34,904 nucleotides of DNA from Candidatus Woesearchaeota archaeon (GTDB lineage: Archaea; Nanobdellota; Nanobdellia; Woesearchaeales; ARS49), in assembly GCA_019323135.1 (NCBI GenBank), contig JAHWHT010000002.1, forward strand, positions 1 to 34,904. Reading direction: 5' to 3'. Each line of letters starts with the position of its first letter. Positions within the stretch are counted from its first letter, which is position 1. The notes beneath the pieces were generated by a model. That model worked only from the letters and a program-made list of their open reading frames with translations. It was not told where the DNA came from and made no database searches. Below are positions 7,857-15,295 of this stretch, one piece after another. Both the position numbers and the translations under genes were made by a program.

Positions 7857-7879
7857 GCGTTCCTAGTTCAGTGATTTTC

Positions 7880-9151
7880 ATGGGGAAAACAGTAATCATC
7901 GGCCTCGATGGTGTGCCATACCATCTAATAGACAATTTGTCTAACAAAGGAGTTATGCCTAATTTTAAGAATCTTAAGGATAAAGGCATTTTCAAGGAGA
8001 TGGAATCTGCAATTCCTGAAATCTCTTCTGTTTCCTGGAGTTCGATAATAACCGGCGTAAATCCTGCAGAGCATGGTATTTTCGGTTTTATGGATATGAT
8101 TCCAGGGACTTACACCATGTCTTTTCCTAATTTTAACTCAATTAAAGCGCCTGCATTCTGGCAAACAATGGATGGAACACATGCAATAATCAATGTCCCT
8201 TCTACTTATCCTGCAAAACCAATGAACGGCTTTCATGTTGCAGGTTTTGTTGCACTAGATTTAGAAAATGCAGTTTATCCACAAAAATATATTCCTATGC
8301 TTGAAGAATTGAATTATCGTATTGATGTCGATTCTGAAAAAGGACACAGTTCTAAAGAATTATTTTTCAAGGATTTGCACAGAACCTTAGACGCAAGACA
8401 AAACACAGCCCTACAGCTATGGGATGAAACAAAATGGGATACCTTCATGTTTGTAATAACCGGAACAGATCGAATTGGTCATTTCTTATGGGACGCATAT
8501 GAAGATGAAAATCATGAGCATCACCAAAACTTTTTAGATTATTTCAAAAGAGTTGACGAAGTTGTAGGAAGCATCACAAATAAAATGTCAGACGAAGATT
8601 CTTTAATCATGATATCTGACCACGGCATGGGCTTGTCAGAAACAAATGTAATCGTCAACGCAGTATTGAAAAATAATGGCTTCTTAGAATTAAACGATGC
8701 AGAACGCCAAAATCACAATCACATCAAAGCAAATTCCAAAGCTTTTGCATTAGACCCAGGAAGAATATACTTAAACAAAGAAGGCAAATACCCTAAAGGC
8801 ACTGTCAAAAAAGAAGATGAAGAACAGATTCTCAAAGACTTAACAAGCACCTTTGAAAATTTAGAAAAAGACGGCAAAAAAGTTATAAAGAAAATTTTCA
8901 GAAAAGAAGAAGTCTACAGCGGCCCGCATCTAGAGCAAGCTCCAGACCTTATCCTGCTTTCAAATAAAGGATTTAATTTAAGAGGAAATTTAACCAAGAC
9001 TGAAATTTTTGACAAAGATATTTTTACTGGAATGCACACACAGGAAGATGCATTTTTATTTGTTAAAACACCAAAAAGCATAGAGCTTCCTAAAAATCCA
9101 AAAGTAACTGATGTTTTTCCAATTATAAATAAAATAAACGGTGATACTTAA
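7880..9151 (+). CDS. alkaline-phosphatase-family protein (type I phosphodiesterase/nucleotide pyrophosphatase-like)
   Basis: VIIGLDGVPYHL, SSVSWSSIITGVNPAEHGIFG (nucleophile region), TGTDRIGH and ISDHGM. The stop overlaps the next ATG (TAATG). Confidence 0.75.
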   Translation: MGKTVIIGLDGVPYHLIDNLSNKGVMPNFKNLKDKGIFKEMESAIPEISSVSWSSIITGVNPAEHGIFGFMDMIPGTYTMSFPNFNSIKAPAFWQTMDGTHAIINVPSTYPAKPMNGFHVAGFVALDLENAVYPQKYIPMLEELNYRIDVDSEKGHSSKELFFKDLHRTLDARQNTALQLWDETKWDTFMFVITGTDRIGHFLWDAYEDENHEHHQNFLDYFKRVDEVVGSITNKMSDEDSLIMISDHGMGLSETNVIVNAVLKNNGFLELNDAERQNHNHIKANSKAFALDPGRIYLNKEGKYPKGTVKKEDEEQILKDLTSTFENLEKDGKKVIKKIFRKEEVYSGPHLEQAPDLILLSNKGFNLRGNLTKTEIFDKDIFTGMHTQEDAFLFVKTPKSIELPKNPKVTDVFPIINKINGDT

Positions 9152-10674
9152 TGAAACCATGTAATGCAAATAAAACGTGCTGGAACTGTCCAGCAGCAAT
9201 GTTAAAAGGTAATGTTGACTTTAGGGCCTGCGGCCAGTCAAAAGAAAAGAAAAGACAATTGTCTGAAGAAAAACAAGTTATGATTGAATGTTCAAGAAGA
9301 AAAGAATTAGGTCATTTTGAGCCTACAATTACTTTTGAACAGTGTCCTGAATGGGAATTGAATGAAAATTATAATCTTTACATGCTAAAGAACATGCGCG
9401 TCATGATTCTTGGTCTTGACGGGTATCTTGGCTGGGCTCTTGCTTTGAAACTAGGAAAATTAGGTTTTAAAGTAAGTGGTATTGATAATTACTGGAGAAG
9501 AGATTGTGTCATGGAAAAAGGTGCACACACAGTTGTTCCTATCCAAAGAATGACAGAACGACTTCGCGCTGCTAAAGAAGTTCTAGGTATTGATATTAAT
9601 TTCAGAAAAATGGATATTCTTGACCGGCCTAAATTAAAAGAATTTTTAGAAGAAACAAAACCCGAAGCAATTATCCATTACGCAGAGTGTCCTAGCGCAC
9701 CATACAGCATGGTTGATGTTGATCACGCAGTTAAAGTTCAAGAAAATAATGTTTTAGGAACATTAGGATTATTGTGGCTGATAAAAGAAGTTGTTCCAGA
9801 ATCTTGCTTAATCAAATTAGGCACAATGGGAGAATACGGTGCTCCATTGACCGGAAGACCAATTTTTGAAGGAATTTTCCCTGCAAATGCAACCCTTAAG
9901 TGGGATGATAGAGAATGGAGTTTAGGTGGAGAACTAACTCCGAGAGATCCAGTAAGTTTTTATCACGTCAGTAAAGTTCAAGACACATTTAATTGTTATG
10001 AAGCCTGCAAGTATTGGTGGTTAAGATCTTATGATGTTATGCAGGGAGTTATTTACGGCGTTCATACTGAAGAAGTTGCTGCTGACCCCCGATTAAGAAC
10101 CAGATTAGATATGGATGAATGGTTTGGAACAGTAGTTAACAGATTTGTTACTCAATCCATTCTGGGAATGCCTTTGACAATCTATGGCGAAGGCGAGCAG
10201 CTTAGAGGATTTATTGCACTAGATGATGCAATGCAATGCATGGTTAGATTAATTTCCAGTCCTCCAGAAGCAGGACAATATGATGTTGTTAATCAGGTTT
10301 CTGGATTAATCAGAGTAAAAAACCTTGCAGAGACTGTTGCAAATGTTGCTAAGGATTTTGGAATAAACACTAAGATTCAAAGAGTGGAAAATCCAAGAGT
10401 TGAGGCAGATAAGCATCCATTAGAAGTTATCTCAACTAAACTACCTGCAGATTTAGGTTTTAATGCAAGCATTACTTTTGATGCAGAAATCAGAAAAATG
10501 TTTGAATTATTAACTCAGCCAGAAATCAAAGCAAGGATTGAAGAGAAAAAACACGCAGTTATGCCTAAAACAAGATGGGATGGTGTAAAGCAGGAAAGTG
10601 AATCTTTTGAGACTTATGATCCTGGAACAAAGAATCTTGAAGATGGACATAAGGGCGTACTGCACACAAAATAA
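9151..10674 (+). CDS. sqd1: UDP-sulfoquinovose synthase (SQD1/Agl3 family SDR) with 81-aa Cys-rich N-terminal extension
   Basis: The body from M82 aligns along its whole length with plant SQD1 as I recall it. Shared blocks are GxDGYxGWAxAL, ECPSAPYSM, NNVLGTLxLL, KLGTMGEYG, SFYHVSKVQD, QGVIYG, RLDMDEWFGTVVNRF, PLTIYGEGEQLRGF and NPRVEA. Confidence 0.85.
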   Translation: MKPCNANKTCWNCPAAMLKGNVDFRACGQSKEKKRQLSEEKQVMIECSRRKELGHFEPTITFEQCPEWELNENYNLYMLKNMRVMILGLDGYLGWALALKLGKLGFKVSGIDNYWRRDCVMEKGAHTVVPIQRMTERLRAAKEVLGIDINFRKMDILDRPKLKEFLEETKPEAIIHYAECPSAPYSMVDVDHAVKVQENNVLGTLGLLWLIKEVVPESCLIKLGTMGEYGAPLTGRPIFEGIFPANATLKWDDREWSLGGELTPRDPVSFYHVSKVQDTFNCYEACKYWWLRSYDVMQGVIYGVHTEEVAADPRLRTRLDMDEWFGTVVNRFVTQSILGMPLTIYGEGEQLRGFIALDDAMQCMVRLISSPPEAGQYDVVNQVSGLIRVKNLAETVANVAKDFGINTKIQRVENPRVEADKHPLEVISTKLPADLGFNASITFDAEIRKMFELLTQPEIKARIEEKKHAVMPKTRWDGVKQESESFETYDPGTKNLEDGHKGVLHTK

Positions 10675-10675
10675 A

Positions 10676-10990
10676 ATGGAGCTTACCGATTCAAATTTTG
10701 AGCAAGAGGTTTATCATTCAGATATTCCTGTTTTTGTTGATTTTTGGGCATCTTGGTGTCCACCCTGCAAGATGATGGAGCCAGTGATTAATTCATTGGA
10801 AAAAGAATATGACGGCAGGGTTAAGATTTGCAAGATAAATATTGACAAGAATAGACTTGCTGCCTCAAAATTTGACATCAAAGGGGTTCCTTTATTTATT
10901 TTATTCAAGAATGGAGAAATCGTAGATCAAGCAGTTGCAGCAAAAACAGAAAGTCAATTAAAAGAAATGATTAATCAAGTATTACCATGA
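10676..10990 (+). CDS. trx: thioredoxin (WCPPC active site)
   Basis: VFVDFWASWCPPCKMM..GVPLFILFKNGE. ATG 10676 lies directly after the sqd1 stop. Confidence 0.85.
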   Translation: MELTDSNFEQEVYHSDIPVFVDFWASWCPPCKMMEPVINSLEKEYDGRVKICKINIDKNRLAASKFDIKGVPLFILFKNGEIVDQAVAAKTESQLKEMINQVLP

Positions 10991-11934
10991 CAAAAGTATT
11001 GATAACCGGCGGATGTGGATTTATTGGTTCTAATTTGGTTGAGTTTATTTTACAGAAAACTGATTGGCAAATTAATGTTCTAGACAATCTTACTGGAGGC
11101 AAGTTAGAAGACATAGAACAAATAGCTGGCTTCAAAGAGCGCAGTACTTTTTTCAAAGGAGACATTAGAAACAAAGAAGACGTTTCAAAAGCAGTTGCAG
11201 GTTGCGATTATGTTGTTAATCTTGCTGCACAGGTTGGCGTAATGCCTTCTGTTGAAGATCCATTATTTGATGCAGATGTTAATATAATTGGAACTATTAC
11301 TGTTTTGAATGCTTGTGTAAAGAACAAAATAAAGAAATTTGTTCAAGCATCTTCTGCTGCCCCTCTTGGCGACCAGGAAATGCCCATGCATGAGAAAAAA
11401 GTTCCTCAACCTCTTTCACCATATGGCGCTAGCAAGCTTGCAGACGAAGCATACTGCAGTGCATTTGCCGCTTCTTACGGGCTAAACACTGTTGCTTTAA
11501 GATTTTCTAACGCTTACGGCATTAAATCTTATCAAAAAGGCAGCGTCATTCCTCTATTCATAAGACAGATTCTTAATGGAGAAACCTGCACTATTTTTGG
11601 AGATGGTGAACAAACAAGGGATTTTATCTATGTTACAGACATCTGTAATGGTATTTATTTAGCATTGACCACAGAACTAAAAAACAAATTTGAGTTGATT
11701 CAACTTGCTACAGGCAAAGAAACTTCAATGAACGAATTATTCAAAGTACTAAAACAAGAATTTGAAAAGCATGGTAAAACAGTACAGGATGCCAAATACG
11801 TTCCAGCAAGGCCTGGCGAAATCATCAGAAACTATGCAGATATCACAAAATTAAGGACTTTGTTGAATTATGAGCCCAAAGTAGACCTAAAAGAAGGCAT
11901 TTCAAAAACAGTTTCTTGGTTCATTAATCAATAA
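10987..11934 (+). CDS. NAD-dependent sugar-nucleotide epimerase/dehydratase (GalE-like SDR)
   Basis: VLITGGCGFIGSNLV and YGASKLADE (YxxxK). ATGA overlap with trx. Confidence 0.8.
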   Translation: MTKVLITGGCGFIGSNLVEFILQKTDWQINVLDNLTGGKLEDIEQIAGFKERSTFFKGDIRNKEDVSKAVAGCDYVVNLAAQVGVMPSVEDPLFDADVNIIGTITVLNACVKNKIKKFVQASSAAPLGDQEMPMHEKKVPQPLSPYGASKLADEAYCSAFAASYGLNTVALRFSNAYGIKSYQKGSVIPLFIRQILNGETCTIFGDGEQTRDFIYVTDICNGIYLALTTELKNKFELIQLATGKETSMNELFKVLKQEFEKHGKTVQDAKYVPARPGEIIRNYADITKLRTLLNYEPKVDLKEGISKTVSWFINQ

Positions 11935-12008: not shown

Positions 12009-12341
12009 ATGGAAAACAGGACTACAATCCAAATTACAGAGGATTTAAGAAAACAACTCAAAGTGCTTGCAGCCAGAAGAGACATCTCTTACCAAGAATT
12101 ACTGCAAGATATGGTATCTGTTTTCAAAGAATTAAATCAAGAAAAAACAATTATTTCCATTCCTTCAATGCTTGCTGGCAAAGTCAATGAAAAGATTGAA
12201 AAAACTGATTTTAGTTCAGTAAGCGAATACACCACATTTGTTTTGCGACAAATGCTTATGGAAACAGCACACAAACAAGACATCGCTTCATCTGATGAAG
12301 AAAAAATAAAAGATAAATTAAGAAAATTAGGTTATTTGTGA
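12009..12341 (+). CDS. ribbon-helix-helix (CopG/Arc/MetJ-like) protein with two RHH-like modules and an acidic linker plus ..KLRKLGYL tail
   Basis: N-terminus TTIQITEDLRKQLKVLAARRDISYQELLQDMV fits the RHH pattern. The second module IISIPSMLAGKVNEKIEKTDFSSVSEYTTFVLRQM is paralogous to the next ORF. Confidence 0.7.
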   Translation: MENRTTIQITEDLRKQLKVLAARRDISYQELLQDMVSVFKELNQEKTIISIPSMLAGKVNEKIEKTDFSSVSEYTTFVLRQMLMETAHKQDIASSDEEKIKDKLRKLGYL

Positions 12342-12350
12342 GGTAACAAA

Positions 12351-12569
12351 ATGAAAATTGAAATTCCTGAAGATTTAATAAAAAAATTACAAAAAAGAGT
12401 TGATTCAACAGATGAGTTTGATTCTGTTGAAGCATATGTCAGCTACATACTTAAGCAGGTTGTAGAAAGACTCGAAACTGAAAATAAAGAAGATGAAAAG
12501 CCAGCTTTTAGCGAAGAAGATGAAGCAAAAGTAAAAGAAAGGCTAAGAAGTTTAGGATACTTGGACTGA
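12351..12569 (+). CDS. ribbon-helix-helix protein with acidic linker plus ..RLRSLGYLD tail
   Basis: KIEIPEDLIKKLQKRVDSTDEFDSVEAYVSYILKQVV fits the RHH pattern. SD GAGGT lies upstream. Confidence 0.7.
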   Translation: MKIEIPEDLIKKLQKRVDSTDEFDSVEAYVSYILKQVVERLETENKEDEKPAFSEEDEAKVKERLRSLGYLD

Positions 12570-12579
12570 GGTGGAAAAA

Positions 12580-13398
12580 ATGGATCATTTAGATGAATTA
12601 GAAAGTAAAAGCATATACATTATTCGTGAAGCATACAAACAGTATAAAAATCTTGCAATGTTATGGTCGATTGGTAAAGATTCAACAGCTTTGTTATGGC
12701 TCTGCAGAAAAGCATTTTTTGGAAGAGTTCCATTTCCAGTAGTGCATATTGATACAAGCTATAAATTCAAGGAAATTTATGAATTTAGAGATAAGTTTAC
12801 CAAAGAATGGGATTTAAAGTTGGTTGTTGGCAAGAACGAAGAAGCTATTGCTGCAGGCATGAGTCCTACTGAAGGAAATAAATTTGAGTGCTGTAACCAA
12901 TTAAAGACTGTTGCATTAAAACAGACTATTGCAAAGCAGAAGTATACTGCATTGCTATTAGGCATCAGAAGAGACGAGCACGGCATAAGAGCAAAAGAAA
13001 GAGTTTTCTCTCCTAGAAATCAGCAGTTCAAATGGGATTACAAGAATCAGCCTCCAGAACTATGGGATCAGTATAAATCAAAACAGGCAGAAGATGAACA
13101 CTTAAGAGTTCACCCGATTTTGCACTGGACTGAACAGGATATCTGGGATTATGTCAAAAGAGAAAAAATTCCAATTACAGAGTTATATTTTGCAAAAAAG
13201 ATGGAAAATGGCGAATCAAAAAGATATAGAAGTATTGGTTGTGAAACTTGCTGTAATCCAATCTGTTCTAATGCAGACGATGTTGACAAGATAGTTGAGG
13301 AATTAAGAACTACAAAAGTCGCAGAGCGTTCAGGCAGAGCACAAGACAAAGAATCTGCGTACATCATGCAGAAGCTTCGGTCTCTCGGATACATGTGA
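12580..13398 (+). CDS. cysD: sulfate adenylyltransferase subunit 2 (CysD, PP-loop ATP pyrophosphatase fold) with extra Cys motifs
   Basis: LESKSIYIIREA, SIGKDS (PP-loop), LLGIRRDEHGIRAKERVFS and HPILHWTEQDIWDY are colinear with E. coli CysD as I recall it. ATG 12580 follows SD GAGGTGG. Confidence 0.85.
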   Translation: MDHLDELESKSIYIIREAYKQYKNLAMLWSIGKDSTALLWLCRKAFFGRVPFPVVHIDTSYKFKEIYEFRDKFTKEWDLKLVVGKNEEAIAAGMSPTEGNKFECCNQLKTVALKQTIAKQKYTALLLGIRRDEHGIRAKERVFSPRNQQFKWDYKNQPPELWDQYKSKQAEDEHLRVHPILHWTEQDIWDYVKREKIPITELYFAKKMENGESKRYRSIGCETCCNPICSNADDVDKIVEELRTTKVAERSGRAQDKESAYIMQKLRSLGYM

Positions 13399-13402
13399 TA
13401 AT

Positions 13403-13609
13403 ATGGTTGACAAACACATTAGAAGCATTACAAAAGGCTTGAGTTGGAGGGTTCTTGCATCCCTCACAACTGTTATTTTAGTTTATGCTTTCACTGGAAA
13501 ATTGGCTCTAGCAGCAGGCATAGGTATACTAGAAGTTATTACCAAACTGCTCATCTATTATGTTCATGAACGGGCCTGGAATAATGTAACATGGGGGAAA
13601 ATAAAATGA
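13403..13609 (+). CDS. DUF2061-type small two-TM membrane protein
   Basis: SITKGLSWRVLASLTT..YYVHERAWN is the DUF2061 signature as I recall it. Confidence 0.6.
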   Translation: MVDKHIRSITKGLSWRVLASLTTVILVYAFTGKLALAAGIGILEVITKLLIYYVHERAWNNVTWGKIK

Positions 13610-14052
13610 GCAATTGCATATTTTGTAAAATAGAAAAAGGAGAAGTTCCTGCAAAGAAAATATATGAATCTAAATATTTTTTTGCAATACTCGATGCACA
13701 CCCAATAGTTGAAGGACACTGTCTTTTAATTCCAAAGAGACATTATGAAACTATTCATAAAATGAATAAAGAAGAAAGCCTGCAATTCGGTGAAGACTGT
13801 ATTACTCTTGCCAAAATGCTAAAAAATTACTGGCCAGATCTGACAATAGCAAACTCAAATGGAAAATTCGCAAGCCAAGCAGTACCGCATTATCACGTCC
13901 ACTTCATTCCTAGGCAGGAAGGAGATAGGCTTTGGGACGAAGATAAATCCAAGATATCATTAGACGTTAGTTCTGGTTTTGAAAGATTAAAACCATCCAA
14001 AGATGAATTAGAACAATTAGCAAACAAACTAATAGGTGATACACATGAATGA
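13606..14052 (+). CDS. HIT-family nucleotide hydrolase/transferase
   Basis: CIFCKI..., followed by the histidine triad [12 protein letters not shown] overlap with the DUF2061 gene. Confidence 0.85.
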
Positions 14053-15295
14053 ACAAGAACATTTTAAATTTGCAATCGTTGGTCACGTAGACCACGGTAA
14101 ATCTACTCTTATTGGCAGGTTATTCTATGATACTGGTTCCTTGCCAGAGGGAAAGATGGAAGAGCTCAAGAAAACCTGTGATGAATTAGGCAAAGATATT
14201 GAATTTGGTTTTATCATGGATCATTTGCAGGAAGAAAGAGAGCAAGGCGTAACTATTGACACTGCTCAGGCTTTTTTCAAGACAGATAAAAGACATTATG
14301 TCATAATCGATGCTCCAGGACATAAAGAATTCACCAAAAACATGATTACTGGAGCTTCACAAGCAGAAGCAGCTTTATTGATTGTTGATGCTGATGAAGG
14401 AGTTCAAGAGCAGACAAAAAGACACGCATACATCTTAAGCATGCTTGGATTAAAGCAGGTTATTGTTGTAATGAACAAGATGGACTTAGTAGAATACAAA
14501 GAAGAAAGATTCAAAGAAGTTGAAAAGAATTTGCTTGAATTTTTAGGTTCATTGAACATAAAACCATCTTACATAATTCCAATTTCTGCAAAGTTGGGCG
14601 ATAATATCGCAAAGAAATCAGAAAACATGTCTTGGTACACAGGAAAAACTGTTCTTGAAGCTCTGGACACATTTGAATCTCTTGCCAGCCTAAGTAATGC
14701 ACCACTTAGATACCCTATTCAAGATGTTTACAAGTTTGATGACAAGCGAATTTTGGCAGGCAGGGTTGAGGCAGGCATTCTTAAGAAAGGTAACCGATTA
14801 TTATTTTTGCCGTCTAACAAAGAAAGCACAATTACTACAATTGAAGACATGAATGGCGAAGTAGAAAGCGTTGAAGCAGGCAAAAGCACAGGAATAACAA
14901 TAGAACATCCGTTATTCGTAGAGCGAGGAGAAATTGCTTGCGATCCGGATGCAGAAAAGCCTACTGTTACAACCAGATTCAGAGGAAAAGTTTTCTGGAT
15001 GTCTAAGCTGCCGTTCAATAAATCTGAAAAAATAACTCTTAAATGCGCTACTCAAGAAGTTGAGTGTGTTATGGAAAAGATTGAGAAAAAGTTAGATTCC
15101 TCAACACTCGCAGTTCTTGAAGAAGATGCTTCTGAAATTAAAGAATGGGAAGTTGGAGAAATTGTCTTCAAAACAGAGGCTCCGGTTGTAATCGAGGATT
15201 TTAACGAAACTCCTGAATTAGGCCGGTTTGTCTTGGTTAAAGGAGAAGATGTTTGTGCAGGCGGAATTGTCACACATAAAGACTTAGAGAACTAA
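14045..15295 (+). CDS. cysN: sulfate adenylyltransferase subunit 1 (CysN GTPase), no fused APS kinase domain
   Basis: [14 protein letters not shown] (G1), DAPGHKEF (G3), NKMD (G4) and EF-Tu-like domains II/III. About 416 aa, which leaves no room for CysC. Confidence 0.85.

What the first reader, a model, noticed from the sequence alone, without database searches (positions are those of the whole stretch)
12580..13398. CysD homologue carries APS-reductase-like CC ... CxxC cysteine signature
The protein is clearly CysD-like (SIGKDS PP-loop, colinear blocks, cysN downstream). It also has FECCNQLKTVALKQ and YRSIGCETCCNPICS, where E. coli and Pseudomonas CysD (from memory) have ..HTDIMKTEGLKQ.. 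and ..FRTLGCWPLTG.. with no such cysteines. CysD shares its fold with assimilatory APS reductases (CysH). In those enzymes a CC pair in the equivalent CCxxRKxxPL region, plus the SIGCxPCT CxxC, ligate the [4Fe-4S] cluster; this is established for P. aeruginosa and M. tuberculosis CysH. Four or more cysteines at the homologous positions of a CysD suggest an Fe-S-bearing ATP sulfurylase subunit. This is notable because the cluster contains a thioredoxin but no cysH. The ECGLH catalytic Cys tail of CysH is absent, so I do not claim reductase activity.
Basis: partly seen in the sequence, partly recalled or inferred. Interest (0 to 1): 0.6.

Follow-up and report, generated by a model that had tools for sequence, protein, structure and literature searches.

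The report
CysD carrying APS-reductase iron-sulfur cysteines
This archaeal gene encodes the catalytic subunit (CysD) of the GTP-coupled sulfate-activating enzyme, and it keeps the four cysteines that hold an iron-sulfur cluster in the related enzyme APS reductase; this is the rule in a large, unstudied, mostly anaerobic branch of CysD and does not point to a hidden sulfite-making activity.

Summary
The ORF at 12580-13398 (+) is a CysD: NCBIfam PRK05253 scores 366 bits and the best solved relative is 1ZUN chain A. It has CC at residues 107-108 and CxxCC at 224-228, numbered from GTG 12571.

- **Alignment.** In sequence and profile alignments, CC and CxxC fall on the [4Fe-4S] ligands of the P. 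aeruginosa and M. tuberculosis APS reductases.
- **Conservation.** C107, C108, C227 and C228 are invariant in the 120 closest homologues and C224 is Cys in 120 of 121 rows. C232 is not conserved.
- **Co-occurrence.** Among 50 full-length cluster representatives, CC and CxxC occur together (27) or not at all (22).
- **Spread.** Relatives occur in at least 585 species genomes, mostly anaerobes, and cysN is adjacent in 81 of 81 loci.

I read it as an Fe-S-bearing ATP sulfurylase subunit whose cluster has a substrate-positioning role and is probably inherited.

The thioredoxin/no-cysH hint is not specific:
- Four-Cys CysD also sits in an operon with a genuine CysH.
- A DPANN/CPR subclade has lost CxxC.
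- The thioredoxin travels with the Cys-rich SQD1-like gene.

I found no published description. The scan noted the same motif on other genomes (e1-4765274, e1-4960037, e1-5108119). Cluster binding is inferred. I could not measure Cys-Cys distances.

The parts
12580..13398 (+). cysD, the catalytic PP-loop subunit of the heterodimeric ATP sulfurylase. It is 272 aa from ATG 12580; an in-frame GTG at 12571 gives 275 aa, and that numbering is used in this report.
   Evidence: Pfam PF01507 1e-44. NCBIfam PRK05253 CysD 366 bits against a cut-off of 195. 1zun_A E 1.4e-65. AF2 model pLDDT 91; VIA-align Z 25.4, rmsd 1.5 A over 195 residues to 1zun_A. Start context.
12667..12684 (+). PP-loop SIGKDS (residues 33-38), the ATP alpha-phosphate / pyrophosphate binding motif.
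   Evidence: Read from the sequence. S33, G35, K36, D37 and S38 are at least 90% conserved in alignments A1 and A2.
12889..12894 (+). Tandem C107-C108, proposed [4Fe-4S] ligands.
   Evidence: Invariant in 121 of 121 close homologues. Aligns with the CC of 2goy and 7lhr APS reductases. Lies at the N-terminus of predicted helix 104-123, as C140 and C141 lie on a helix in MtbAPSR (PMC8173546).
12904..12906 (+). K112 of the LKT motif, aligned with the conserved active-site Lys (K144 in P. aeruginosa APS reductase) that follows the CC pair.
   Evidence: Invariant in A2 and at least 90% conserved in A1. Aligned K-to-K in the profile alignment to 2goy and 7lhr. The role of K144 is from bioRxiv 10.64898/2026.09.04.749436.
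13240..13254 (+). C224-E-T-C227-C228. C224 and C227 are the CxxC pair of proposed cluster ligands. C228 is an extra cysteine specific to this subclade (CxxCC).
   Evidence: C224 is Cys in 120 of 121 rows; C227 and C228 in 121 of 121. CxxC aligns with siGCepCt of 2goy and siGCapCt of 7lhr. C228 is T in most of the more distant four-Cys CysDs and in the APS reductases.
13264..13266 (+).
   Evidence: D in 71, E in 22 and C in only 4 of 121 homologues.
14036..15295 (+). cysN, the GTPase subunit (419 aa, no APS-kinase domain) and partner of CysD.
   Evidence: TIGR02034 CysN 359.6 bits against a cut-off of 336.1. A cysN homologue lies downstream on the same strand in 81 of 81 loci. The complex prediction is described in the full report.
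7871..9151 (+). Alkaline-phosphatase-superfamily (PF01663) gene, the most frequent third partner of this cysDN type. It is a candidate consumer of APS (sulfotransferase-like). This is context, not part of the Cys signature.
   Evidence: PF01663 3.4e-40. A homologue lies within 6 kb of cysD in 67 of 81 loci. AP-like superfamily proteins Agl30 and Agl31 are N-glycan sulfotransferases in Hbt. salinarum (PMC11980604).
9151..10990 (+). SQD1-like UDP-sulfoquinovose synthase homologue with a Cys-rich N-terminal extension of about 80 aa (9151-10674), followed by thioredoxin (10673-10990).
   Evidence: NF041015 412 bits, below the cut-off of 575; PF00085 3.6e-31. The same gene pair recurs next to a CxxCC-type cysDN in L060, at 66% and 54% identity.

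Best explanation
The gene encodes CysD, the ATP-binding catalytic subunit of the GTP-coupled ATP sulfurylase CysDN. This enzyme makes adenosine 5'-phosphosulfate (APS) from ATP and sulfate together with the CysN encoded 0.6 kb downstream.

Unlike the studied E. coli, Pseudomonas and Mycobacterium CysD proteins, it most likely binds a [4Fe-4S] cluster. The ligands would be C107, C108, C224 and C227, at the site where the homologous assimilatory APS reductases bind theirs: beside the invariant Lys (K112) and the phosphosulfate end of the nucleotide.

I infer that the cluster is not a redox-catalytic centre. It organises the sulfate/APS pocket and stabilises the fold. It is probably an ancestral feature of the CysD/CysH lineage, kept in anaerobes and lost in several lineages, including the canonical aerobic-type CysD.

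What is shown and what is inferred:
- Shown: family membership, alignment of the four Cys with known ligands, their conservation and co-occurrence, and the pairing with cysN.
- Inferred: metal binding, the kind of cluster and its role.
- Unexplained: the subclade-specific fifth cysteine, C228.
For: - **CysD identity.**. Fold match to 1zun_A has Z 25.4 and rmsd 1.5 A over 195 residues.
- **Alignment with ligands.** In HMMER single-sequence and profile alignments, CC falls on the CC, and CxxC on the CxxC, of M. tuberculosis (7lhr) and P. aeruginosa (2goy) APS reductases. Cluster-free PAPS reductases (6vpu, 1sur) and moss APR-B (4bwv) have no Cys there. Ligand identity is from PMC8173546 and PMC1175818.
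- **Structural span.** The AF2 model (pLDDT 91) superposes on 2goy_B (Z 21.2, rmsd 2.4 A, 202 residues, model 9-261) and on 7lhs_B (Z 19.4, rmsd 2.1 A, model 9-232 against chain 26-231). Both ranges span both motifs.
- **Conservation.** C107, C108, C227 and C228 are invariant and C224 is Cys in 120 of 121 rows covering 120 homologues of 71-94% identity.
- **Co-occurrence.** All-or-none: 27 both, 22 neither, 1 and 0 partial.
- **Minimal cases.** L097 and L103 CysDs have only these four Cys.
- **Hosts.** Carriers are overwhelmingly anaerobes: Methanothrix, Methanofastidiosum, Syntrophorhabdus, Smithella, Geomonas, Clostridium, Dehalococcoidia, Brocadiia, Omnitrophota and DPANN.
- **Cluster assembly.** The window's own genome encodes IscU and a cysteine desulfurase.
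- **Ancestry.** The Fe-S CysH outgroup and all deep CysD branches carry the four Cys.
- **Partner.** The CysD-CysN complex prediction scored 0.83 against a best of 3 controls of 0.00. That mark was reached by 58 of 80 solved complexes and 2 of 110 mismatched pairs. The runs agree in at least 75% of contacts and the partner's pLDDT is at least 82. The counts hold only roughly, because my own alignments and a riding ligand were used. Because 1ZUN is solved, the pass may come from memory and shows likeness only.
Against: - No iron, sulfide or spectroscopy data exist for any CysD that I could find.
- The tools do not expose model coordinates, and the ligand in the complex job is not scored.
- A Cys4 site could bind Zn instead.
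- The cluster cannot be essential for APS synthesis. Canonical CysD lacks it. A subclade 64-68% identical to the window's protein has replaced CxxC by CMPIT, and in five of those loci CC remains.
- In my tree the canonical CysD sits inside the four-Cys forms, but this placement is not robust. The alternative with them as sister groups has a higher likelihood, AU p 0.81. The ancestry argument therefore rests on the outgroup comparison.
- C228 is unaccounted for.
Confidence: 0.62

Rival explanations
1. The four cysteines bind a structural zinc ion, not an iron-sulfur cluster. The site only stabilises the loop that carries RSIGC.
For: Cys4 sites with a CxxC element are common Zn sites, and other PP-loop enzymes carry Zn fingers (general knowledge). 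Sequence alone cannot tell the metal. The site is dispensable in several lineages, as a purely structural site might be.
Against: The residues are positionally homologous to proven [4Fe-4S] ligands in the nearest paralogous family. A tandem CC is the unusual hallmark of that cluster (PMC1175818). The restriction to anaerobes fits an oxygen-labile cluster better than Zn.
Confidence: 0.13
2. This CxxCC-type CysD is bifunctional. After making APS it also reduces it to sulfite, with C228 or another Cys as the sulfuryl acceptor and the neighbouring thioredoxin as reductant. This would supply the SQD1-like enzyme in a genome without CysH.
For: - The own genome (86.7% complete) has no CysH, no APS kinase and no sulfite reductase, yet it has an SQD1-like gene that would need sulfite and a thioredoxin.
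- About 30 of 50 genomes with this CysD lack both a CysH-like gene and APS kinase.
- C228 is invariant in the subclade and sits next to the predicted cluster.
Against: - There is no ECGLH-type C-terminal nucleophile. The tail is the normal CysD tail.
- Thirty-six of 50 carrier genomes have no sulfite reductase. Only one other of the 80 related loci (L060) has a true SQD1 homologue near cysD. Most carriers therefore show no need for sulfite.
- The four-Cys motif also occurs in an operon with a genuine CysH (L097).
- The usual partner is an AP-superfamily gene, in 67 of 81 loci, which suggests direct sulfuryl transfer rather than reduction.
- The thioredoxin is coupled to the Cys-rich SQD1-like gene both here and in L060.
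- A 94%-identical orthologue has neither gene nearby.
Confidence: 0.08
3. The cysteines form a thiol/disulfide or cluster-based redox or oxygen switch. It turns sulfate activation off when the cell is oxidised or iron-starved. The role is regulatory, not structural or catalytic.
For: - APS-reductase simulations suggest that the cluster's redox state modulates the conserved Lys and substrate binding (bioRxiv 10.64898/2026.09.04.749436).
- The extra vicinal Cys C228 (and C226 in CECCC variants) could form disulfides.
- The hosts are anaerobes.
Against: There is no direct evidence. Strict positional homology to a stable, non-regulatory cluster is the simpler reading. This rival still needs the cluster to be bound, so it overlaps with the best explanation.
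Confidence: 0.1
4. The cysteines are an evolutionary relic with no bound cofactor and no present function.
For: The site has been lost repeatedly without loss of the gene or of its cysN pairing.
Against: The four positions are invariant or near-invariant across 120 homologues from many phyla, where neighbouring positions vary. The all-or-none co-occurrence indicates purifying selection on the set.
Confidence: 0.04

Closest known systems
CysD of the GTP-regulated ATP sulfurylase CysDN (P. syringae, PDB 1ZUN chain A; E. coli CysD)
   Same: - Same fold and PP-loop, colinear over the whole length.
- 45-48% identity over the aligned core.
- C-terminal basic-GY(F/M) tail.
- Adjacent CysN partner, and the same predicted interface type.
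   Different: - Canonical CysD has HTDIMKT and RTLGCYPLTG, with only one of the four Cys.
- It has an insertion of about 30 residues before RFRTLGC that the window's protein lacks.
- The segment carrying the CxxC equivalent is not resolved in 1ZUN: 204 residues are modelled, chain range 2-211.
Assimilatory [4Fe-4S] APS reductase CysH (P. aeruginosa 2GOY; M. tuberculosis 7LHR/7LHS)
   Same: - Same PAPS_reduct fold: Z 19-21, rmsd 2.1-2.4 A.
- CC followed by a conserved Lys, and sIGCxPC, align residue for residue with the cluster ligands.
   Different: - Only 21-26% identity.
- Scores 64-76 bits against the CysH/APS-reductase NCBIfam models, far below their cut-offs.
- The functional SIGKDS PP-loop is retained.
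- No C-terminal ECGLH nucleophile.
- Spacing between CC and CxxC is 115 residues, against 81 in the M. tuberculosis enzyme.
- Partnered with a GTPase.
PAPS reductases (E. coli 1SUR/2O8V, V. vulnificus 6VPU) versus APS reductases
   Same: They offer a precedent within the same superfamily for paired forms with and without the cluster. The CysD family shows the same dichotomy.
   Different: That dichotomy goes with a change of substrate (PAPS against APS). No substrate difference is known or shown for the two CysD forms.
TtuA/NcsA tRNA thiolases (PP-loop ATPases with a [4Fe-4S] cluster; 5B4F, 6SCY)
   Same: They are PP-loop ATP pyrophosphatase-fold enzymes that use a non-redox [4Fe-4S] cluster next to the adenylation site (Z about 12).
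   Different: The cluster ligands lie at other positions, the chemistry differs (sulfur insertion) and the relationship is distant. The own genome has a separate TtuA-like gene on contig C95.

Membership tests
CysD (sulfate adenylyltransferase subunit 2) | PP-loop motif S-x-G-K-D-S in a PAPS_reduct (PF01507) domain | tested here: met
   SIGKDS at residues 33-38. PF01507 1e-44.
CysD (sulfate adenylyltransferase subunit 2) | Scores above the curated cut-off of a CysD family model | tested here: met
   NF003587 (PRK05253, subfamily) scores 366.1 bits against a cut-off of 195. It is below the cut-offs of the narrower TIGR02039 (279.7 against 396.6) and NF009214 (294.5 against 413), which are built on long canonical CysDs.
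CysD (sulfate adenylyltransferase subunit 2) | Encoded with, and binding, the GTPase CysN | tested here: met
   cysN lies at 14036-15295 (TIGR02034 above cut-off) and is adjacent in 81 of 81 loci. The complex prediction scored 0.83 against a best of 3 controls of 0.00; that mark was reached by 58 of 80 solved complexes and 2 of 110 mismatched pairs. Runs agree in at least 75% of contacts and partner pLDDT is at least 82. The pass may come from memory of 1ZUN.
CysD (sulfate adenylyltransferase subunit 2) | GTP-stimulated synthesis of APS from ATP and sulfate | not testable with these tools
   Needs an enzyme assay.
Assimilatory APS reductase (CysH, Fe-S type) | CC ... CxxC cluster-ligand motif | tested here: met
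   C107, C108, C224 and C227 align to the ligands of 2goy and 7lhr.
Assimilatory APS reductase (CysH, Fe-S type) | C-terminal catalytic cysteine in an ECGLH-type tail | tested here: not met
   The protein ends ...MQKLRSLGYM, with no Cys after residue 232. Genuine CysH proteins from carrier genomes end in ECGLH or ECGIH.
Assimilatory APS reductase (CysH, Fe-S type) | Scores above the curated cut-off of a CysH/APS-reductase model | tested here: not met
   TIGR02055 64.4 against 235.3; NF002537 75.6 against 154; TIGR00434 62.4 against 165.1.
[4Fe-4S] proteins | Bound iron-sulfur cluster | not testable with these tools
   Only ligand homology, conservation and co-occurrence could be tested. Model coordinates are not exposed, and the 4Fe-4S riding in the complex job was not scored.

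The most novel reading that the evidence does not exclude
The CxxCC subclade of CysD is not merely a cluster-bearing sulfurylase. Its cluster and the extra vicinal cysteine C228 would take part in chemistry on the activated sulfate. Two routes are conceivable: reduction to sulfite with thioredoxin, or hand-over of the sulfuryl group to the conserved AP-superfamily partner. Either would give anaerobes and DPANN/CPR organisms an APS-based sulfonation or sulfation route that needs neither APS kinase nor CysH.
Probability: 0.08. Interest if true: 0.85.

Novelty: new variant of a known kind. Interest (0 to 1): 0.52.

Why it matters
CysDN is a textbook enzyme that has been studied only in aerobic or facultative bacteria, where CysD has no cofactor.

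If a large, mostly anaerobic branch binds a [4Fe-4S] cluster at the APS-reductase site, three things follow:
- Sulfate activation in these organisms would depend on iron and be sensitive to oxygen.
- The with-cluster/without-cluster split known for APS and PAPS reductases would have a parallel in the sulfurylase.
- The common ancestor of the sulfate-activating and sulfate-reducing PP-loop enzymes would probably have been an Fe-S protein.

The branch has relatives in at least 585 species genomes, including methanogens, syntrophs, Planctomycetota, Clostridia and DPANN.

The idea is cheap to test by anaerobic purification, for example from Geomonas, Clostridium or Methanothrix homologues.

The finding does not solve where this genome gets sulfite for its SQD1-like enzyme.

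Tried and rejected
- **Cys-Cys distances in the model.** Structure prediction returns no coordinates and /data holds none, so I substituted structural and sequence alignment to 2goy and 7lhs.
- **4Fe-4S cluster in the CysD-CysN complex job.** Small molecules are not scored and their contacts are not listed, so the job says nothing about the site. The confident CysN interface does not include residues 107-108 or 224-228.
- **Canonical Cys-less CysD nested inside four-Cys CysD.** The quick tree showed this. The AU test does not reject the sister-group alternative, which even has a higher likelihood (lnL +34.5, p 0.81). I dropped the nesting claim and kept only the outgroup argument.
- **MAFFT L-INS-i on 151 representatives.** It timed out and was replaced by hmmalign. 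The first hmmalign column mapping was offset by trimming and was corrected.
- **Second strong PF01507 hits as CysH.** On inspection, several are canonical CysD or second Cys-type CysD copies. CysH-like genes remain in 9 of 50 genomes, two of them fused archaeal forms; three more hits are ambiguous.
- **An SQD-like neighbour in 10 loci.** Most are generic epimerases. Only L060 has a true homologue of the window's SQD1-like gene.
- **Literature.** Searches for an Fe-S CysD and readings of PMC6286981 and PMC10322725 found no mention. The library lacks most subscription journals, so this is no proof of absence.
Full report
**1. The observation**

The ORF runs from 12571 (GTG) or 12580 (ATG) to 13398 on the + strand. 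ATG 12580 is the likelier start. It follows GAGGTGG, and the homologues begin MDHLD. I number residues from the GTG, giving 275 aa; subtract 3 for the ATG start.

- SIGKDS at residues 33-38.
- FECCNQLKT, with C107 and C108.
- YRSIGCETCCNPICS, with C224, C227, C228 and C232.

The protein ends LRSLGYM and has no ECGLH tail. P. syringae CysD (1zun_A) has HTDIMKTEGLKQ and RFRTLGCYPLTG at the aligned places.

**2. What the protein is**

It is a CysD:
- Pfam gives PAPS_reduct, 1e-44.
- NCBIfam PRK05253 (CysD) gives 366 bits against a cut-off of 195. The CysH and APS-reductase models reach only 62-76 bits, far under their cut-offs.
- The best solved relative is CysD 1zun_A, E 1.4e-65.
- An AlphaFold2 model built on a 58-sequence alignment has mean pLDDT 91.
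- The model matches 1zun_A best: Foldseek E 2e-21, and VIA-align Z 25.4 with rmsd 1.5 A over 195 residues. The next matches are APS and PAPS reductases, such as 2goy_B with Z 21.2 and rmsd 2.4 A over 202 residues.

The partner gene cysN lies at 14036-15295 (TIGR02034 above its cut-off). A cysN homologue follows cysD on the same strand in all 81 loci I examined.

A complex prediction of CysD with CysN scored 0.83, against a best of 3 controls of 0.00.
- That mark was reached by 58 of 80 solved complexes and 2 of 110 mismatched pairs.
- The runs agree in at least 75% of contacts, and the partner's pLDDT is at least 82.
- The counts hold only roughly, because I used my own alignments and a ligand rode along.
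- Because 1ZUN is a solved complex of this kind, the pass may come from memory and shows likeness only.

**3. Are the cysteines at the APS-reductase ligand positions?**

Yes, by two kinds of alignment.
- The single-sequence HMMER alignment to M. tuberculosis APS reductase (7lhr) puts ECC on ECC and SIGCetC on SIGCapC.
- A profile of 42 Cys-type CysDs aligns leCCtelK with geCCgirK of P. aeruginosa APR (2goy) and heCCrlrK of 7lhr. It aligns slGCepCtepv with siGCepCtrpv and siGCapCtak.

In the same search, the cluster-free PAPS reductases (6vpu, 1sur) and moss APR-B (4bwv) have no Cys at these columns.

The M. tuberculosis structure paper states that the cluster is coordinated by C140 and C141 (helix alpha7) and by C223 and C226, in a C-C-X81-C-X2-C motif (PMC8173546). 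Carroll et al. describe the CC-X~80-CXXC motif as the marker of Fe-S APS reductases (PMC1175818).

The structural alignments span both motifs: model 9-232 against 7lhs_B 26-231 at 2.1 A, and model 9-261 against 2goy_B 39-249. In the model, C107 and C108 open helix 104-123.

I could not measure Cys-Cys distances. Coordinates are not exposed, and the 4Fe-4S cluster I let ride in the complex job is not scored.

The corresponding C-terminal segment of canonical CysD is absent from the 1ZUN model, which has 204 residues covering chain range 2-211.

**4. Conservation**

The 120 best homologues are 71-94% identical. They come from Woesearchaeota, Methanofastidiosa, Methanoperedens, Methanosarcinaceae, Thermoplasmata, Micrarchaeota, Diapherotrites, Phycisphaerae and Acidobacteriota.
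- C107, C108, C227 and C228 are invariant in all 121 rows.
- C224 is Cys in 120 of 121.
- C45 varies.
- C232 is mostly D or E, and Cys in only 4.

I then looked at the best 150 representatives of 50%-identity clusters. Fifty of them cover both regions:
- 27 have CC and CxxC.
- 22 have neither pair (most keep only the single Cys of RTLGC).
- 1 has CxxC only.
- None has CC only.

Fisher p is 2.6e-13, uncorrected for relatedness. The fifth Cys is specific to the closer subclade; more distant four-Cys CysDs have CxxCT, like APS reductases.

Two CysDs, L097 (309 aa) and L103 (293 aa), have only these four cysteines in the whole protein.

**5. Spread and hosts**

A scan of species-representative genomes found at least 585 stretches encoding relatives. 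The best 80 are almost all from anaerobic lineages:
- Archaea: Methanothrix harundinacea, Methanofastidiosum, Thermoplasmatota, Bathyarchaeia and DPANN.
- Bacteria: Syntrophorhabdus, Smithella, Geomonas propionica, Thermodesulfobacteriota, Dehalococcoidia, Brocadiia, Sedimentisphaerales and Anaerohalosphaeraceae, Omnitrophota, Sumerlaeota, Kiritimatiellae, Clostridium, Lachnospiraceae and Patescibacteria.

Of 81 loci including the window, 72 have all four Cys, and 59 of those have CxxCC.

Nine loci, mostly DPANN, CPR and Bdellovibrionota, have CMPIT or a similar sequence in place of CxxC. Five of them still keep CC (L042, L048, L049, L070, L072). This looks like recent decay of the site.

**6. 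Ancestry**

I built a quick maximum-likelihood tree (LG+G4, 83 rows) rooted on five Fe-S CysH sequences from carrier genomes. All deep CysD branches are four-Cys, and at least five changes of state are forced by well-supported branches.

The tree placed the canonical Cys-less CysDs inside the four-Cys forms, but this placement is not robust. Holding the remaining 64 rows together gives a better likelihood, and the AU test does not reject it (p 0.81).

Under either topology, three observations make an ancestral cluster with repeated loss the parsimonious reading:
- The Fe-S outgroup carries the four Cys.
- The deep CysD lineages carry them.
- A four-Cys member (P0221) sits inside the canonical clade.

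This rests on the motif being homologous in CysH and CysD, and on my choice of Fe-S-type outgroups.

**7. Is the motif tied to a missing CysH and the thioredoxin?**

The own genome is 0.99 Mb and 86.7% complete. It has no APS kinase and no NIR_SIR sulfite reductase. Its only other PAPS_reduct hit is a TtuA/NcsA-like tRNA thiolase next to ThiI, IscU and a cysteine desulfurase.

The motif is nevertheless not specific to that situation:
- **It coexists with CysH.** In L097 (Anaerohalosphaeraceae) a four-Cys CysD sits between a genuine CysH (243 aa, CC...CxxC...ECGLH) and a CysNC.
- **The closest orthologue lacks the neighbours.** A 94%-identical orthologue (L009) keeps the core gene order RHH, small protein, cysD, DUF2061, HIT, cysN, UbiA. 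It has no SQD1 or thioredoxin beside it.
- **The thioredoxin follows SQD1.** The only other locus with a true homologue of the window's Cys-rich SQD1-like gene (L060, 66% identity including the N-terminal extension) has the thioredoxin directly after that gene, as here. The thioredoxin belongs with SQD1.
- **Most carriers show no use for sulfite.** In 50 carrier genomes, a sulfite reductase domain is found in 14, APS kinase in 14, and CysH-like genes in 9, plus 3 ambiguous hits. About 30 lack both CysH and APS kinase. Their completeness is not known to me.
- **The commonest third partner suggests sulfuryl transfer.** It is an alkaline-phosphatase-superfamily gene, within 6 kb in 67 of 81 loci; here it is at 7871-9151. 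AP-like superfamily proteins Agl30 and Agl31 are the N-glycan sulfotransferases of Halobacterium salinarum (PMC11980604). This suggests that APS made by this cysDN type mostly feeds sulfation.
- **The partner is independent of the cluster.** The AP partner also accompanies CxxCT forms and forms that have lost the cluster.

Five genomes carry two CysDN systems (Geomonas, Clostridium, Lachnospiraceae, G008 and G034). In each, the CxxCC-type copy is the one next to the AP gene.

**8. Mechanism I commit to**

CysD adenylates sulfate at the PP-loop site, under control of CysN's GTPase. This is established for the family.

I infer that a [4Fe-4S] cluster held by C107, C108, C224 and C227 sits next to K112 and the phosphosulfate end of the product, as in APS reductase.
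- In APS reductase the cluster is thought to interact with the sulfate moiety (PMC1175818).
- Recent simulations suggest it sets the conformation of the equivalent Lys, K144 (bioRxiv 10.64898/2026.09.04.749436).

Its role in CysD would be to organise and stabilise the pocket. This makes the enzyme iron-dependent and oxygen-sensitive, and the cluster would be dispensable once the pocket is rebuilt, as in canonical CysD.

C228 remains unexplained. My confidence in this reading is about 0.6. The rivals are a Zn site, a redox switch, a bifunctional reductase and a relic.

**9. Novelty**

Full-text searches for an Fe-S CysD found nothing. The two papers that treat archaeal CysDN do not mention the cysteines. 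Earlier notes of this scan reported the same motif on three other genomes and reached a similar reading. I reached mine from my own tests.

I class the finding as a new variant of a known kind. It is moderately surprising for a textbook enzyme and easy to test, but it is not the bifunctional enzyme that the genomic context hints at.

Noticed in passing
window 12009-12341 and 12351-12569; L003:7753-7989; L005:7777-7989 and 11246-11467; L009:4845-5408: Small RHH-like proteins just upstream of cysD end in the same tail as CysD: an acidic stretch followed by RL(K/R)xLGY(L/M). A protein of this family lies near cysD in 26 of 81 loci, mostly upstream on the same strand. The CysD tail (residues 266-275) was not among the confident CysN contacts in the complex model.
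   Followed up: partly
window 7871-9151; e.g. L003:10492-11202, L005:10530-11228: An alkaline-phosphatase-superfamily (PF01663-like) gene lies within 6 kb of this cysDN type in 67 of 81 loci across archaea and bacteria. It comes in a long form of about 440 aa and a mini form of about 235 aa. It is a candidate APS-using sulfotransferase, by analogy with Agl30 and Agl31 of Hbt. salinarum.
   Followed up: partly
window 9151-10990; L060:11333-13166: The SQD1-like gene with a Cys-rich N-terminal extension of about 80 aa, followed by a thioredoxin gene, recurs as a pair in an uncultured Planctomycetia genome (66% and 54% identity) next to a CxxCC-type cysDN. Neither genome has a CysH. The N-domain plus thioredoxin is an alternative candidate for the missing APS-to-sulfite step.
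   Followed up: partly
50 carrier genomes G001-G050: About 30 of 50 genomes with this cysDN lack both APS kinase and any CysH-like gene, and 36 lack a sulfite reductase domain. The fate of APS in them is unknown. Completeness of these MAGs was not given.
   Followed up: partly
L042, L046, L048, L049, L058, L070, L072, L075, L076 (cysD at about 8001-8800 or as listed): A subclade 64-68% identical to the window's CysD, mostly in DPANN, CPR and Bdellovibrionota, has replaced CxxC by CMPIT. Some members still keep the CC pair. This appears to be a recent loss of the putative cluster site.
   Followed up: yes
L092 (Geomonas), L093 (Clostridium), L094 (Lachnospiraceae), L097, L103: Some genomes hold two CysDN systems. 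One is a canonical or CxxCT-type cysD with cysH and/or cysNC (assimilatory or PAPS route). The other is the CxxCC-type cysDN next to the AP-superfamily gene. This suggests functional divergence of the two.
   Followed up: partly
window 13403-14052; L009:6241-6890; L048:4555-4998; L058:3968-4411: A HIT-family gene, and here also a DUF2061 gene, lies between cysD and cysN only in DPANN loci. Bacterial and euryarchaeal loci often have a TauE-family permease at that place.
   Followed up: no
L101:395-2278 (G006, Methanobacteriota MAG): A 628-aa PAPS-reductase-like protein with CC and CxxC-like cysteines is fused to a C-terminal ferredoxin-like Cys-rich domain. It resembles the 'putative APS/PAPS reductases' described for ANME and methanogens in PMC6286981.
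   Followed up: no
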